NCBI GenBank assembly: GCA_964563935.1
Contig: CAZLZE010000006.1
Coordinates: 119 to 64,118 of the forward strand
Length of the DNA stretch: 64,000 nt
From: an uncultured Phycisphaerae bacterium
GTDB lineage: Bacteria; Planctomycetota; Phycisphaerae; JAAYCJ01
Direction of reading: 5' to 3'
The notes under the pieces: model-generated
The model's database searches: none
The model's input: only the letters and a program-made list of their open reading frames with translations
Told to the model about the DNA's origin: nothing
Shown: positions 31,830 to 34,150 of the stretch, piece by piece
How positions within the stretch are numbered: position 1 is the first letter of the stretch
Layout of the letters: the number at the start of each line of letters is the position of its first letter
Program-made: the position numbers and the translations under genes

Positions 31830-33476
31830 ATGGCTACAAGCGGTAACGGGAAAAGGACGTTTGAAATTGCGGCCTGTGACGGCAGACTTCCCCAGGAAAC
31901 GGTGAGCTTGTGTCCGGAATGTTTGGCTACCATTCCGGCCGTCCTTTGTGAACGCTCTGATCAGGTGTGGATGGAGAAGACATGCCCTCAACATGGCGAC
32001 TTCCGCGAGCTGATCAGCCCCGACGCAAGGTTCTACAAACAACTCGACCAGTGGGACTGGACAGAGGTTCTGGACAATGAAGGGGCGATCGCCTTTCCGC
32101 TGACCCAGGGACAAGGCAGATGTCCGCAGGACTGTGGTTTGTGCAGTCAACACCGCAGTTCCACCATGATGAGCGTCATAGACATCACCAATCGCTGCAA
32201 CCTCCGCTGCCCATTCTGTTTTGCCAATGCCACGGTTTCCGGACGCGTCTGCGAAATGTCGTTGGATCAAATCAAGGACTTGATGGCCAAGGCCTTTACG
32301 GTCAACAAAGTCAGTCCTCCCTGCCTGCAGTTTACCGGTGGCGAACCCACCATTCATCCGCAGTTCTTGCAGGCATTACGGGAAGCGAAAAAGCTGGGTT
32401 TTGCCCAGTTGCAGATCGCCAGCAATGGCGTGACGTTTGCGCGGGACGCAGAATTTGCCCAGGCCGCCTCCGAGGCGGGGCTCAACGTCGTCTACTTGCA
32501 GTTTGACGGTGTCGATGACGGCGTTTACCTGAAGACCCGTGGTACGCCGCTTTGGGAACTCAAGAACAGGGCGGTGGAGAATATTCGTAAGGCCGGGATG
32601 GAGATCATCCTTGTTCCGACGCTCATCAAGGGCGTCAACGACCATCAGATCGGCGACATCTTCCGCTTCGCGGTGGCGAATTGCGGAACCGTCGTGGGGG
32701 TCAGTTGGCAGCCGGTGGCCTTCGTGGGACGTGTCGACCATGAACAGCGATTGGCCCAGCGGTTCACCGTTACCGATCTGGCGCGAGAATTGGAGAAGCA
32801 GACCGATGGTCGTATCCGGATGTATCGCGATTGGTATCCGCTGTCCTTTGTAATGCCTTTCAGCCGGCTGCTCCGATCCATCCATGGCGAGGACTTTCCC
32901 ATGATCTCCTGCCATCGTCACTGTGGAGCGGGAAACTACATCCTGGTCGATCCTGCGAGCCATTCGTATCGCCCGCTGACGGCCTTTCTGGACGTACAGG
33001 GTCTGATAGGCAGGATGAATGAATTAGCTGGCTCGCTGGAGCATCGGCGCTGGCTTAAAAAGTTCACATTGATGCGAGCGATGAAGGATGTGGATCAGTA
33101 CTTTGACACAAGCCAGACCCTTCCTGGGTGGAGCGGCAAGGAACTGCTGAAGTTCATGAATTCATTCGCCAATTTCCGCAAGCTGTTTCCGGATAATGCC
33201 GCTCGTTTGGCCGATATAAGAGCTCAGCGATACCCGTCCATTCTGATGGTGGCGATGCATTTCATGGACGTGTATAATTTTGAGGTGCCCCGTGCCCAGC
33301 GGTGCGTGGTGCATTATACGGGTGCGGACGGCAAGATGTATCCGTTTTGCACCTACAATGGCGGCCCGTGCTTCCGACAGCGTGTGGAGGCGCAATTCGA
33401 GCAGTTTGCGGCTCGCCAGTATGTGTGCGCCGGGTCAGCGGGACAGCGAAAGGACCGGGTAGTCAGCGAAGTATGA
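31830..33476 (+). CDS. Radical SAM enzyme with N-terminal Cys-rich (zinc-ribbon-like + second Cx3Cx2C) extension, function unknown
   Basis: Canonical CNLRCPFC (Cx3Cx2C) radical SAM motif at ~aa 125. Upstream CPECL…C…CPQH and CPQDCGLC motifs. Additional C-terminal Cys (CHRHCGAG; YPFCTYNGGPCF). GAGGTGG Shine-Dalgarno before ATG 31830. Confidence 0.65.
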   Translation: MATSGNGKRTFEIAACDGRLPQETVSLCPECLATIPAVLCERSDQVWMEKTCPQHGDFRELISPDARFYKQLDQWDWTEVLDNEGAIAFPLTQGQGRCPQDCGLCSQHRSSTMMSVIDITNRCNLRCPFCFANATVSGRVCEMSLDQIKDLMAKAFTVNKVSPPCLQFTGGEPTIHPQFLQALREAKKLGFAQLQIASNGVTFARDAEFAQAASEAGLNVVYLQFDGVDDGVYLKTRGTPLWELKNRAVENIRKAGMEIILVPTLIKGVNDHQIGDIFRFAVANCGTVVGVSWQPVAFVGRVDHEQRLAQRFTVTDLARELEKQTDGRIRMYRDWYPLSFVMPFSRLLRSIHGEDFPMISCHRHCGAGNYILVDPASHSYRPLTAFLDVQGLIGRMNELAGSLEHRRWLKKFTLMRAMKDVDQYFDTSQTLPGWSGKELLKFMNSFANFRKLFPDNAARLADIRAQRYPSILMVAMHFMDVYNFEVPRAQRCVVHYTGADGKMYPFCTYNGGPCFRQRVEAQFEQFAARQYVCAGSAGQRKDRVVSEV

Positions 33477-34150
33477 TCAAGAACGTGGAGACGGACCGAT
33501 TCTTACAACTCCGAAAGCAGATGGTCGACGAACAGCTGCGAGGGAGGAATATCACCGACTCCCGCGTTCTCCAAGCCATGACCGCACTCCCTCGGGAACG
33601 GTTCGTTCCTCCGGATAAGCATGCTGAGGCCTATGAAGATCGGGCCCTATCCATCGGTTTGGATCAGACAATCTCCCAGCCGTACATGGTTGCCCTTATG
33701 ACAGAAAAGCTCCAAATTCAGCCGGAGAACCAGGTTCTCGAAATCGGGACAGGGTCGGGGTATCAGACAGCCGTTCTGGCCAGACTCGCGAAGAAGGTTT
33801 ATACCGTGGAGCGTATTCCTGAATTATCACAACGGGCCCGGGAAATCCTTGATCGCCTGGATATCCACAATGTCCTGTACAGGGTAGGTGATGGTACCCT
33901 CGGATGGTCTGAGCATGCTCCTTTTGACCGGATCCTTGTGACGGCCGGATCGCCGGAGGTCCCTGAGACACTGGCGAACCAACTGGCTGACGGGGGAGTG
34001 ATGGTGATTCCCGTGGGACCATCCGACTGCCAGACCCTGATGTGGGTTCAGAAGAGTGGCAAGGCGCTGCGCCAGTTGCCCATCGTCAGTTGTCGGTTTG
34101 TCAAATTGATTGGTGAGCAAGGCTGGCCGAAGGAGAGGGAAGAGACTTAA
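33473..34150 (+). CDS. pcm: Protein-L-isoaspartate(D-aspartate) O-methyltransferase
   Basis: PIMT motifs (…DQTISQPYMVALM…; VLEIGTGSGYQTAVLA; DRILVTAGSPEVP). ATG 33473 overlaps the radical SAM stop (ATGA). Confidence 0.85.
   Translation: MIKNVETDRFLQLRKQMVDEQLRGRNITDSRVLQAMTALPRERFVPPDKHAEAYEDRALSIGLDQTISQPYMVALMTEKLQIQPENQVLEIGTGSGYQTAVLARLAKKVYTVERIPELSQRAREILDRLDIHNVLYRVGDGTLGWSEHAPFDRILVTAGSPEVPETLANQLADGGVMVIPVGPSDCQTLMWVQKSGKALRQLPIVSCRFVKLIGEQGWPKEREET

What the first reader, a model, noticed from the sequence alone, without database searches (positions are those of the whole stretch)
31830..34150. Multi-Cys-cluster radical SAM enzyme start-stop coupled to protein-L-isoaspartate O-methyltransferase
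The radical SAM protein has a ~120-aa N-terminal extension with a zinc-ribbon-like CPEC...C...CPQH and a second Cx3Cx2C (CPQDCGLC) ahead of the canonical CNLRCPFC. Further C-terminal Cys are also present, suggesting two to three Fe-S clusters. This architecture recalls large lipid- or cofactor-modifying radical SAM enzymes, for example tetraether-lipid-synthase-like proteins, but I cannot assign it. Its stop overlaps the pcm start (ATGA), implying co-translation with a protein-repair methyltransferase. That is an unusual pairing.
Basis: partly seen in the sequence, partly recalled or inferred. Interest (0 to 1): 0.6.

Follow-up and report, generated by a model that had tools for sequence, protein, structure and literature searches.

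The report
Bacterial tetraether-lipid-synthase homolog coupled to pcm
A planctomycete-type (probably Phycisphaerae) bacterium carries a full-length homolog of the archaeal enzyme that welds two lipid tails into a membrane-spanning lipid, co-transcribed with an ordinary protein-repair methyltransferase; enzymes of this kind are already known in these bacteria, and the pairing, although conserved in one clade, looks like co-expression rather than a joint mechanism.

Summary
A radical SAM gene (31830-33476, +) ends in an ATGA overlap with pcm (33473-34150, +).

The radical SAM protein is a Tes / GDGT-MAS (tetraether lipid synthase) family member:
- It scores 495.9 bits on NCBIfam NF045702, above the cutoff of 450.
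- It aligns over its full length to PDB 7TOL (E 5e-114, 38% identity).
- Its AlphaFold model superposes on 7TOM (TM 0.81/0.90).
- Every metal ligand of the four GDGT-MAS cofactors is conserved.

Pcm is a canonical orthologue of E. coli Pcm.

The tes-pcm pair recurs in five other lineages of one Phycisphaerae-like clade (Tes 55-66% identical). Their flanking genes differ, and three of them also have the ATGA overlap. The pair is missing in four other lineages at 52-58% identity. It is adjacent in none of 80 more distant genomes. A sister genome has uvrD<>pcm at the same locus with no tes.

So the two genes are co-expressed here but each persists without the other. I read this as a clade-specific operon, not an enzymatic partnership.

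Tes homologs in Planctomycetota/Phycisphaerae are already published, and their lipid product is still unproven. This is a new member of a known kind, of moderate-to-low interest.

The parts
31609..31637 (+). Promoter-like site TTTGCA-N17-TATAAT, about 190 nt upstream of the tes start
   Evidence: Consensus scan, 10 of 12 matches. Both hexamers and the following CCAAGGCGGGC are conserved in L100, whose Tes is 66% identical. Function is inferred, not shown.
31819..31825 (+). Shine-Dalgarno-like GAGGTGG in front of ATG 31830
   Evidence: Read directly from the sequence. The same AAGGTGGGACTATG is present in L100.
31830..33476 (+). tes: Tes / GDGT-MAS-family radical SAM enzyme (548 aa; the longer ORF from ATG 31815 gives 553 aa)
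   Evidence: NF045702 'tetraether lipid synthase Tes' 495.9 bits, cutoff 450. PDB 7TOL E 4.9e-114 over residues 24-529. AlphaFold pLDDT 84.8, TM 0.81/0.90 to 7TOM.
31890..32018 (+). N-terminal rubredoxin-like metal-binding domain (residues 26-68; C33, C36, C57, H60 = CX2CX20CX2H)
   Evidence: PF23545 Zn_ribbon_HMPTM E 3e-19. Same spacing as the C9X2C12X20C33X2H36 Fe site of GDGT-MAS (PMC9433317). Conserved in the 54 homologs, apart from one His-to-Asp at H60 and one N-terminally incomplete sequence at C33/C36.
32121..32153 (+). Ligands of the N-terminal auxiliary [4Fe-4S] cluster: C103-X3-C107-X2-C110-X2-H113
   Evidence: Aligns with the CPYDCGLCPNH ligands of GDGT-MAS (C73, C77, C80 + His). 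Invariant in homologs.
32184..32672 (+). Radical SAM core (residues 124-286) with C128-X3-C132-X2-C135 at 32196-32219
   Evidence: PF04055 E 7.7e-26. Motif invariant.
32922..33350 (+). C-terminal auxiliary-cluster / lipid-pocket domain: C370, C497, C512 and M481 (equivalent to the labile Met439 of GDGT-MAS)
   Evidence: Residue-by-residue alignment to 7TOL, with the Met439 position worked out from the chain offset. C370, C497 and C512 are conserved in all 54 homologs and M481 in 53 of 54. Role of this cluster taken from PMC9433317.
33473..33476 (+). ATGA start/stop overlap between tes and pcm
   Evidence: The same ATGA junction is found in L100, L107 and L111.
33473..34150 (+). pcm: protein-L-isoaspartate(D-aspartate) O-methyltransferase (225 aa)
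   Evidence: PF01135 E 2.3e-64. NF001453 255.5 bits (cutoff 188) and TIGR00080 229 bits (cutoff 159). E. coli Pcm 3LBF E 2.4e-54 over its full length, with the TISQPYMVA and VLEIGTGSGYQTA motifs intact.

Best explanation
The locus is a two-gene operon, tes-pcm, in a Planctomycetota genome that is probably Phycisphaerae.

**The first gene.** It encodes a genuine Tes / GDGT-MAS-family radical SAM enzyme. By homology with the M. jannaschii enzyme it should work as follows:
1. It binds two lipid tails in a hydrophobic pocket.
2. It cleaves SAM at the CX3CX2C cluster, and the resulting radical abstracts H from a terminal tail carbon.
3. It parks that carbon on a sulfide of the C-terminal [4Fe-4S] cluster.
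4. A second SAM-derived radical on the other tail then forms a Csp3-Csp3 bond, giving a membrane-spanning (bola) lipid.

The substrate in this bacterium is not shown. I infer that iso-/branched fatty-acyl or alkyl glycerolipids (brGDGT-type chemistry) are more likely than archaeal isoprenoid diethers.

**The second gene.** It is the ordinary protein-L-isoaspartate repair methyltransferase.

**The coupling.** No promoter-like site was found in front of pcm, and the two genes share an ATGA junction. pcm is therefore probably expressed from the tes promoter by termination-reinitiation. This arrangement is inherited within one clade. I interpret it as co-expression of two independent functions. 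Both may serve slow-growth or stationary-phase maintenance, one for membrane robustness and the other for protein repair. I do not see it as a biochemical partnership.

**What is shown:** family membership, ligand conservation, fold, the gene overlap, and the distribution of the pairing. **What is inferred:** the lipid product, co-transcription, and any physiological rationale.
For: **Family identity**
- NF045702 above its cutoff.
- Full-length hit to 7TOL at 38% identity.
- Unique structural match, TM 0.81/0.90; the next best is MoaA at 0.33.
- All rubredoxin, N-cluster, radical SAM-cluster and C-cluster ligands conserved, including the labile Met.

**Bacterial source**
- Four DUF1559/N-methyl proteins in the window.
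- Nearest Tes and Pcm relatives are named Phycisphaerae, Sedimentisphaerales or Planctomycetota.

**Pcm is canonical**
-.

**Operon structure**
- ATGA overlap.
- No + strand promoter-like site between 31637 and 34211.
- Divergent uvrD upstream, and a tRNA plus a convergent gene downstream.

**Pairing conserved in a clade**
- L100, L101, L104/5, L107-9 and L111 all have it, with different flanking genes.
- All paired Tes proteins fall in one clade of the NJ tree.

**The two genes are independent**
- L114 has uvrD<>pcm with no tes. Its UvrD is 71% identical to the window's, the same as in the tes-bearing L100 and L101.
- tes occurs without pcm in L102, L106, L112 and L113.
- Zero of 80 more distant loci have pcm adjacent.

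**Growth phase**
- Membrane-spanning lipids rise in stationary phase in Thermotoga and Thermoanaerobacter (PMC13159169). I know from general knowledge that E. coli pcm contributes to stationary-phase survival; this was not tested here.
Against: - No bacterial Tes homolog has been shown experimentally to make a membrane-spanning lipid (PMC11868695, PMC13459092).
- Tes homologs are absent from many iso-diabolic-acid producers, which use Mss or something else (PMC13159169).
- No lipid-pathway gene lies in the 64-kb window, so the substrate cannot be inferred from context.
- The pair, and even the ATGA junction, is retained across roughly 55-66% Tes identity while the flanking genes change. That is more than simple operon inertia would obviously predict, and it leaves room for a functional link.
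- Co-transcription was not measured.
Confidence: 0.6

Rival explanations
1. Tes and Pcm form a functional module. Either Pcm specifically maintains Tes (or another component of the lipid pathway) by repairing isoaspartyl damage in a long-lived, slowly turned-over enzyme, or this Pcm-family methyltransferase has taken on a substrate connected with membrane-spanning lipid synthesis.
For: - The gene pair is retained in six lineages of one clade despite complete turnover of flanking genes.
- The ATGA translational coupling is conserved in four of them.
- pcm is essentially never within 10 kb of tes elsewhere (1 of 80, and that one is not adjacent). The association is therefore not a general neighbourhood effect.
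Against: - Pcm scores as a full equivalog of housekeeping Pcm, and its substrate and SAM motifs are intact.
- L114 keeps pcm at the same uvrD locus with tes absent.
- Four related lineages keep tes without pcm.
- No Asn-Gly or Asp-Gly feature of Tes tracks with pcm linkage. YNGGP occurs in only three linked proteins and YNCGP in the other linked ones.
- All occurrences may go back to a single ancestral event.
Confidence: 0.15
2. The enzyme makes true archaeal-type isoprenoid tetraethers or macrocyclic diethers. The bacterium would have acquired (parts of) the archaeal ether-lipid pathway, rather than coupling bacterial fatty-acid-derived tails.
For: - The protein passes the equivalog model trained on archaeal Tes.
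- It conserves the whole active-site metal architecture.
- Black Sea Phycisphaerae MAGs were reported to carry both Tes and GrsA (GDGT ring synthase) homologs (PMC11868695).
Against: - No GGGP/DGGGP synthase, G1P dehydrogenase, Grs or Gms gene lies in the window.
- No bacterium had been shown to produce isoprenoid GDGTs as of 2022 (PMC8941075).
- GDGT-MAS itself binds ester-linked bacterial phospholipids in its pocket, so conservation of the pocket does not discriminate between substrates.
Confidence: 0.12
3. The radical SAM protein is not a lipid enzyme. It would be a pterin C-methyltransferase (7,8-dihydro-6-hydroxymethylpterin dimethyltransferase, the older assignment of MJ0619), or a related non-lipid family such as TrsS.
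For: - JGI names several close homologs this way.
- The Pfam N-terminal domain keeps the HMPTM name.
- There is a partial match to NF045646 TrsS at 343.8 bits.
- Some Planctomycetes have H4MPT-linked C1 enzymes. This comes from my own knowledge and was not tested here.
Against: - Lloyd et al. could not reproduce the pterin activity. They found a long hydrophobic lipid pocket with bound lipids and showed tetraether synthesis in vitro (PMC9433317).
- The TrsS score is below its cutoff of 490, and the TrsS match covers only about residues 28-336.
- No methanopterin genes lie in the window.
Confidence: 0.03

Closest known systems
GDGT-MAS / Tes (M. jannaschii MJ0619, PDB 7TOL/7TOM; M. acetivorans MA_1486; S. 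acidocaldarius Saci_0703)
   Same: - Same length and four-domain architecture: rubredoxin-like Fe site, N-terminal [4Fe-4S] with Cys3His, radical SAM core, and C-terminal [4Fe-4S] with Cys3 + Met.
- 38% identity over 484 aligned residues.
- Model-to-crystal TM 0.81/0.90.
- Passes NCBIfam NF045702.
   Different: - The host is bacterial.
- No archaeal lipid genes are nearby.
- There is an extra near-invariant Cys366 (SCHxHCG) where the M. jannaschii enzyme and three of the four archaeal sequences compared have Ser or Thr.
- The substrate and product are unknown.
- It is linked to pcm, which none of the 18 loci titled as archaeal among the 80 genome loci shows.
Bacterial Tes homologs of Acidobacteriota, Desulfobacterota, Chloroflexota and Planctomycetota (Zeng 2022; Ding 2025; Garcia 2024)
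   Same: - Same family.
- The window protein sits in a planctomycete/Phycisphaerae branch of this bacterial radiation.
- Its presence in Phycisphaerae is already reported from MAGs.
   Different: - Published bacterial examples are discussed with Gms, GrsA, Mss or Ger co-occurrence. Here the only operon partner is pcm.
- I found no paper mentioning that link.
Mss, membrane-spanning lipid synthase of Thermotoga / Thermoanaerobacter
   Same: It performs the same kind of reaction (radical SAM tail-to-tail C-C coupling), and it is demonstrated on bacterial fatty acyl chains. It is the best functional analogy for what a bacterial enzyme of this type does.
   Different: Mss is described as only remotely related to Tes. 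The window protein is a Tes orthologue-type sequence, not an Mss. I had no Mss sequence to compare directly.
Canonical bacterial pcm loci (E. coli Pcm, PDB 3LBF)
   Same: The window Pcm aligns over its full length with E. coli Pcm (E 2.4e-54) and conserves the motifs.
   Different: The genomic partner differs. In E. coli, pcm sits in the surE-pcm-nlpD-rpoS region (my own knowledge, not tested here). Here it is translationally coupled to tes.

Membership tests
Tes / GDGT-MAS tetraether lipid synthase (NCBIfam NF045702; InterPro IPR034474) | Whole-protein score above the curated equivalog cutoff | tested here: met
   495.9 bits against a cutoff of 450, model positions 2-483 of 486.
Tes / GDGT-MAS tetraether lipid synthase (NCBIfam NF045702; InterPro IPR034474) | Rubredoxin-like mononuclear Fe site CX2CX20CX2H at the N-terminus | tested here: met
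   C33, C36, C57 and H60 with identical spacing. PF23545 E 3e-19. Metal occupancy itself cannot be tested here.
Tes / GDGT-MAS tetraether lipid synthase (NCBIfam NF045702; InterPro IPR034474) | N-terminal auxiliary [4Fe-4S] cluster ligated by CX3CX2C plus a conserved His | tested here: met
   C103, C107, C110 and H113, invariant in homologs.
Tes / GDGT-MAS tetraether lipid synthase (NCBIfam NF045702; InterPro IPR034474) | Radical SAM CX3CX2C cluster in a partial TIM barrel | tested here: met
   C128, C132 and C135. PF04055 E 7.7e-26. The model shows alternating beta/alpha elements from residues 119-300.
Tes / GDGT-MAS tetraether lipid synthase (NCBIfam NF045702; InterPro IPR034474) | C-terminal auxiliary [4Fe-4S] cluster with three Cys and a labile Met (the site of the C-S intermediate) | tested here: met
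   C370, C497, C512 and M481 align with the GDGT-MAS ligands and Met439.
Tes / GDGT-MAS tetraether lipid synthase (NCBIfam NF045702; InterPro IPR034474) | Overall fold equal to the solved GDGT-MAS structure | tested here: met
   Foldseek hit to 7TOM: E 4e-50, TM 0.81 (query) / 0.90 (target), rmsd 2.9 A over 507 columns. Next best fold has TM 0.33. Model pLDDT 84.8.
Tes / GDGT-MAS tetraether lipid synthase (NCBIfam NF045702; InterPro IPR034474) | Catalyses tail-to-tail Csp3-Csp3 coupling of membrane lipid chains | not testable with these tools
   Needs expression and lipidomics. No bacterial homolog has been confirmed in the literature searched.
Tes / GDGT-MAS tetraether lipid synthase (NCBIfam NF045702; InterPro IPR034474) | Host makes the diether (archaeol-type) substrate | tested here: inconclusive
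   No GGGPS, DGGGPS, G1PDH, Ger/PlsA, ElbD, Grs or Gms gene in the 64-kb window. The rest of the genome was not available.
Radical SAM (seleno)protein TrsS (NF045646) | Score above the curated cutoff | tested here: not met
   343.8 bits against a cutoff of 490, and only partial coverage.
Protein-L-isoaspartate O-methyltransferase Pcm (PF01135; NF001453; TIGR00080) | Score above the curated cutoffs, and full-length similarity to characterised Pcm with motifs intact | tested here: met
   NF001453 255.5 bits (cutoff 188). TIGR00080 229 bits (cutoff 159). PF01135 E 2e-64. 3LBF E 2.4e-54 over residues 13-213, with TISQPYMVA and LEIGTGSGYQTA conserved.
Conserved tes-pcm operon (as a candidate functional gene pair) | Adjacency on the same strand is retained across divergent genomes, independently of the flanking genes | tested here: inconclusive
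   - Retained in 5 of 9 informative relatives at 52-66% Tes identity, with different flanks.
- Adjacent in 0 of 80 relatives at 47% identity or less.
- All positives lie in one clade, so they may reflect a single ancestral event.
- Each gene also occurs without the other.

The most novel reading that the evidence does not exclude
In this Phycisphaerae clade, tes-pcm is a selected 'long-term survival' module. Membrane-spanning lipid synthesis and isoaspartate repair would be deliberately co-translated. Either Pcm is needed to keep the slow, multi-cluster Tes enzyme (or its membrane partners) functional in very slowly growing anaerobes, or both are switched on together by one starvation-responsive promoter. 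If so, pcm linkage would give a handle on when and why bacteria make tetraether-type lipids.
Probability: 0.1. Interest if true: 0.6.

Novelty: new member of a known kind. Interest (0 to 1): 0.35.

Why it matters
Bacterial Tes homologs are candidate makers of branched GDGTs and other bacterial membrane-spanning lipids. These lipids underpin widely used palaeotemperature and pH proxies and feature in the 'lipid divide' debate. The activity of the bacterial homologs has never been demonstrated.

This locus adds:
- a clean, full-length Phycisphaerae example with every catalytic ligand intact, suitable for expression;
- a small new fact: in one clade the gene is translationally coupled to pcm.

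That coupling could hint at stationary-phase or slow-growth regulation. By itself it does not change what is known, because Tes homologs in Planctomycetota have already been catalogued from metagenomes.

Tried and rejected
1. **Metagenome scan with the single protein.** It returned only distant relatives (46% identity or less) and none of the close clade, so it was no use for the pairing question. I used exact-protein contig look-ups instead; all 12 are now spent.
2. **All-against-all clustering of six-frame ORFs within 4 kb of tes in 112 loci.** The aim was to find recurrent lipid-gene neighbours. Most large clusters in the high-GC acidobacterial loci were off-frame spurious ORFs. Apart from lineage-specific synteny, the pcm cluster was the only recurrent neighbour relevant here. 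I dropped the approach.
3. **Pcm linkage tracking a deamidation-prone Asn-Gly in Tes.** YNGGP occurs only in the window, P0002 and P0003. Other linked proteins have YNCGP, and NG/DG counts do not differ. Rejected.
4. **Riboswitch or other known RNA in the roughly 190-nt 5' leader.** Nothing was found except the downstream tRNA.
5. **tRNA-Ala after pcm as a shared synteny or integration marker.** It is absent from all related loci.
6. **A radical SAM gene near pcm in the tes-less L114 as a possible Gms or Tes remnant.** It gives only a weak YydG-like hit, so it is unrelated.
7. **Cluster-member look-up for a taxon name of the source contig.** No names were attached. Taxonomy rests on DUF1559 genes and on named Phycisphaerae relatives.
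Full report
**1. Observation**

The window holds an ORF at 31815..33476 (+, 553 aa) and an in-frame pcm ORF whose ATG lies at 33473 (225 aa, ending at 34150). The bases at 33473-33476 read ATGA, so the pcm start codon overlaps the stop codon of the upstream gene.

- It is preceded by GAGGTGG (31819-31825).
- The public copy of the protein (P0001, 100% identical) is 548 aa.
- The SD+ATG is conserved in the nearest relative L100, which lacks the upstream ATG.

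I use the numbering of the 553-aa ORF below; subtract 5 for the 548-aa protein.

- C33-PE-C36 ... C57-PQ-H60
- C103-PQD-C107-GL-C110
- C128-NLR-C132-PF-C135
- further Cys at 366, 370, 497, 512, 519 and 538

**2. What the radical SAM protein is**

| Test | Result |
|---|---|
| Pfam | N-terminal 'HMPTM zinc ribbon' (PF23545, residues 26-68) and a radical SAM core (PF04055, residues 124-286) |
| NCBIfam | Above the curated cutoff of the equivalog model NF045702 'tetraether lipid synthase Tes' (495.9 against 450 bits, nearly end to end) |
| NCBIfam, related family | TrsS model fails (343.8 against 490 bits) |
| PDB sequence search | One strong hit, GDGT-MAS of Methanocaldococcus jannaschii (7TOL/7TOM), E 4.9e-114 over residues 24-529; 38% identity over 484 aligned positions |
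| AlphaFold model from 30 homologs | pLDDT 84.8, pTM 0.88 |
| Foldseek against PDB | 7TOM at TM 0.81 (query) / 0.90 (target), rmsd 2.9 A; next best fold is MoaA at TM 0.33 |

The crystal-structure paper defines four cofactor sites (PMC9433317). Each has its counterpart here:

| GDGT-MAS site | Ligands in GDGT-MAS | Counterpart in the window protein |
|---|---|---|
| Rubredoxin-like Fe | CX2CX20CX2H | C33, C36, C57, H60 |
| [4Fe-4S]N | Cys3 + His | C103, C107, C110, H113 |
| Radical SAM cluster | CX3CX2C | C128, C132, C135 |
| [4Fe-4S]C | three Cys + labile Met439 | C370, C497, C512, M481 |

These positions are conserved in the 54 bacterial and archaeal homologs I aligned. The only departures are one His-to-Asp at H60, one Met-to-Arg at M481, and one N-terminally incomplete sequence lacking C33 and C36.

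Its 'second CX3CX2C' is the N-terminal auxiliary cluster. The 'further C-terminal Cys' are the cluster on which the enzyme forms its C-S intermediate. One small difference is that bacterial homologs carry an extra near-invariant Cys366 (SCHxHCG). The M. jannaschii enzyme has Ser there, and three of the four archaeal sequences compared have Ser or Thr.

**3. Whose genome it is**

The 64-kb window encodes:
- four DUF1559 / N-terminal-methylation pseudopilin-like proteins;
- many glycoside hydrolases, with LacI and AraC regulators;
- housekeeping genes: UvrD/PcrA, MnmG, LepA, signal peptidase, transketolase and an M17 aminopeptidase.

The nearest Tes and Pcm relatives that carry names are Phycisphaerae, Sedimentisphaerales or Planctomycetota MAGs. 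I conclude this is a polysaccharide-degrading Planctomycetota bacterium, probably Phycisphaerae.

No lipid-pathway gene is in the window. I looked for GGGPS, DGGGPS, G1PDH, Ger/PlsA, ElbD, Grs, Gms and a second radical SAM gene.

**4. The pcm gene**

Pcm passes three tests:
- PF01135 at E 2e-64;
- the equivalog models NF001453 (255.5 against 188 bits) and TIGR00080 (229 against 159 bits);
- a full-length alignment with E. coli Pcm (3LBF, E 2.4e-54), with the TISQPYMVA and LEIGTGSGYQTA motifs intact.

It scores far below the cutoffs of the specialised PCMT-like families (the FxLD and ATP-grasp peptide systems). It is a canonical repair methyltransferase.

**5. Operon anatomy**

- Upstream lies a divergent uvrD (29245-31491, -).
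- Downstream of pcm lie a tRNA-Ala(GGC) with its own promoter-like site (34255-34330) and then a convergent gene.
- The unit is therefore just tes-pcm.
- A promoter-like TTTGCA-N17-TATAAT sits at 31609-31637 and is conserved in L100.
- No + strand promoter-like site was found between it and the end of pcm.
- There is no obvious SD in front of pcm.

I infer that pcm is expressed from the tes promoter by termination-reinitiation at ATGA. This was not measured.

**6. Is the pairing conserved?**

In distant relatives it is not. Among 80 loci from GTDB species genomes (Tes 39-50% identical; Planctomycetota, Desulfobacterota, Acidobacteriota, Chloroflexota, Methanomassiliicoccales and others), only one has any pcm within 10 kb. 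In that one (L009) the pcm lies 2.4 kb away on the other strand.

In close relatives, which exist only in metagenome data, I looked up the contigs one by one.

| Tes relative | Tes identity | Locus | pcm after tes? | Junction or neighbour |
|---|---|---|---|---|
| P0002 | 66% | L100 | yes | ATGA overlap |
| P0003 | 65% | L101 | yes | 69-nt spacer |
| P0011 | 59% | L104/L105 | yes | 18-nt spacer |
| P0008 | 58% | L111 | yes | ATGA overlap |
| P0015 | 55% | L107-L109 (Phycisphaerae, GCA_012729815.1) | yes | ATGA overlap |
| P0006 | 58% | L106 | no | - |
| P0014 | 56% | L112 | no | - |
| P0010 | 56% | L102 | no | a PEBP/YbhB-family gene follows instead |
| P0016 | 52% | L113 | no | - |
| P0007 | 58% | L110 | cannot tell | contig ends |

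The junction sequences were checked directly.

Two further points:
- The flanking genes differ between the positive loci. UvrD is upstream in the window, L100 and L101. An ISC operon is downstream in L104. Thymidylate synthase is nearby in L107 and L111.
- In a neighbour-joining tree, all pcm-linked Tes proteins lie in one clade, spread over its three sub-branches, with the unlinked ones interspersed.

The simplest history is one ancestral fusion into an operon, followed by a few losses.

**7. A tes presence/absence polymorphism**

The closest Pcm relative (P0127, 64% identical, 'Phycisphaerae bacterium') sits on L114 directly divergent from uvrD, with no tes between them. The UvrD proteins of L114, L100 and L101 are all 71% identical to the window's. 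These are therefore four roughly equidistant genomes sharing one locus. Three have uvrD<>tes-pcm and one has uvrD<>pcm.

The uvrD-proximal part of the intergenic region is conserved in all four. The tes promoter block is shared only by the tes-bearing ones.

So pcm persists when tes is absent, and tes persists elsewhere without pcm. That argues against an obligate biochemical partnership. No Asn-Gly or Asp-Gly feature of Tes correlates with pcm linkage.

**8. Mechanism**

By homology with GDGT-MAS (PMC9433317; review PMC13459092), the expected chemistry is:
1. Two lipids bind with their tails in a hydrophobic pocket.
2. Reductive cleavage of SAM at the radical SAM cluster gives 5'-dA radical, which abstracts H from a terminal carbon.
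3. The carbon radical is captured on a sulfide of the C-terminal cluster.
4. A second SAM generates a radical on the other tail, which attacks to form the Csp3-Csp3 bond.

What is shown here is that the full catalytic apparatus is conserved. Which lipid is coupled is not shown.

The literature bears on this as follows:
- Zeng et al. proposed bacterial homologs as brGDGT synthases acting on iso-branched tails (PMC8941075).
- Ding et al. found Tes and GrsA homologs in Black Sea Phycisphaerae MAGs (PMC11868695).
- Garcia et al. found tes-gms clusters in Planctomycetes (PMC11214058).
- Sahonero-Canavesi et al. showed that many (iso-)diabolic-acid producers lack Tes and use Mss, which is only remotely related (PMC13159169).
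- As of the 2026 review, the bacterial Tes activity remains unconfirmed, and my search found no such experiment.

I favour fatty-acid-derived substrates, but only weakly.

**9. Why pcm?**

The best-supported reading is co-expression of two independent functions. A plausible, though inferred, rationale is shared slow-growth or stationary-phase regulation. Membrane-spanning lipids increase in stationary phase in Thermotoga and Thermoanaerobacter. Pcm is a stationary-phase survival factor in E. coli (my own knowledge, not tested here).

A true functional module cannot be excluded, because the pair and its ATGA junction are retained while the flanks turn over. I give that about 0.15. I found no paper connecting isoaspartate repair with tetraether synthesis.

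**10. Verdict**

- The 'unusual pairing' is real and clade-conserved, but it is probably not mechanistic.
- The enzyme is a new member of a known, already catalogued kind: bacterial, Planctomycetota Tes homologs of unproven product.
- Interest is 0.35. It is useful as a clean expression candidate and offers a modest regulatory hint, but it is not a surprise to specialists.

Noticed in passing
window 34255-34330 and 53014-53089 (+): Two identical 76-nt tRNA-Ala(GGC) genes lie 18.7 kb apart. The first sits behind a scanned promoter-like site, TTGACC-N17-TATGAT. By eye, a similar CTTGACC...GTATGATAT lies upstream of the second copy. The other flanking sequence is unrelated. The first copy lies 104 nt after the pcm stop.
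   Followed up: partly
window 27533-28453 and 28360-29184 (-): A tandem pair of paralogous proteins (47% identical). Each has a hydrophobic, probably membrane-spanning N-terminal half (judged by eye from the sequence, not predicted) and a C-terminal C39-peptidase-like domain, but neither is fused to an ABC transporter. They lie between a URO-D-like gene and uvrD. Function unknown.
   Followed up: partly
window about 31534-31620; L100, L101 and L114 intergenic regions: The uvrD-proximal part of the uvrD/tes intergenic region (CTCCAAAAG...ACGTAAAC..ATAATTTTAGCACA..TAAACCCAATA.GAACT) is conserved across four genomes whose UvrD proteins are only 71% identical. This includes the tes-less L114. It may be a uvrD promoter or operator.
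   Followed up: partly
window 32910-32924 (Tes residues 366-370); alignment of 54 homologs: Bacterial Tes homologs have an extra near-invariant Cys (C366, motif SCHxHCG), four residues before the C-terminal-cluster ligand C370. The M. jannaschii enzyme has Ser there, and three of the four archaeal sequences compared have Ser or Thr. Many clade members also have YNCGP after the ligand C512. These may be alternative cluster ligands in the bacterial branch.
   Followed up: partly
L102 5889-6491 and L103 2287-2889: In the P0010 lineage (Tes 56% identical), the gene 20 nt downstream of tes is a PEBP/YbhB-family protein rather than pcm. This family takes its name from phosphatidylethanolamine-binding protein. 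It could be a lipid-related partner worth checking.
   Followed up: partly
L101 2661-4208: The public gene call for P0003 (487 aa, no zinc-ribbon domain recorded) looks N-terminally truncated. tblastn homology to the window Tes starts at residue 25, about 84 nt upstream of the called start.
   Followed up: partly
window 34422-34724 (-): A 100-aa ORF between the tRNA-Ala gene and the convergent 618-aa gene. By eye it looks like the C-terminal fragment of a larger, possibly glycoside-hydrolase-like, protein, so it may be a gene remnant. I did not test this.
   Followed up: no
window 34794-36650 (-): A 618-aa protein convergent on pcm has no Pfam or NCBIfam match, although it sits in a glycoside-hydrolase-rich neighbourhood (a GH39/CBM9 protein is next door).
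   Followed up: partly
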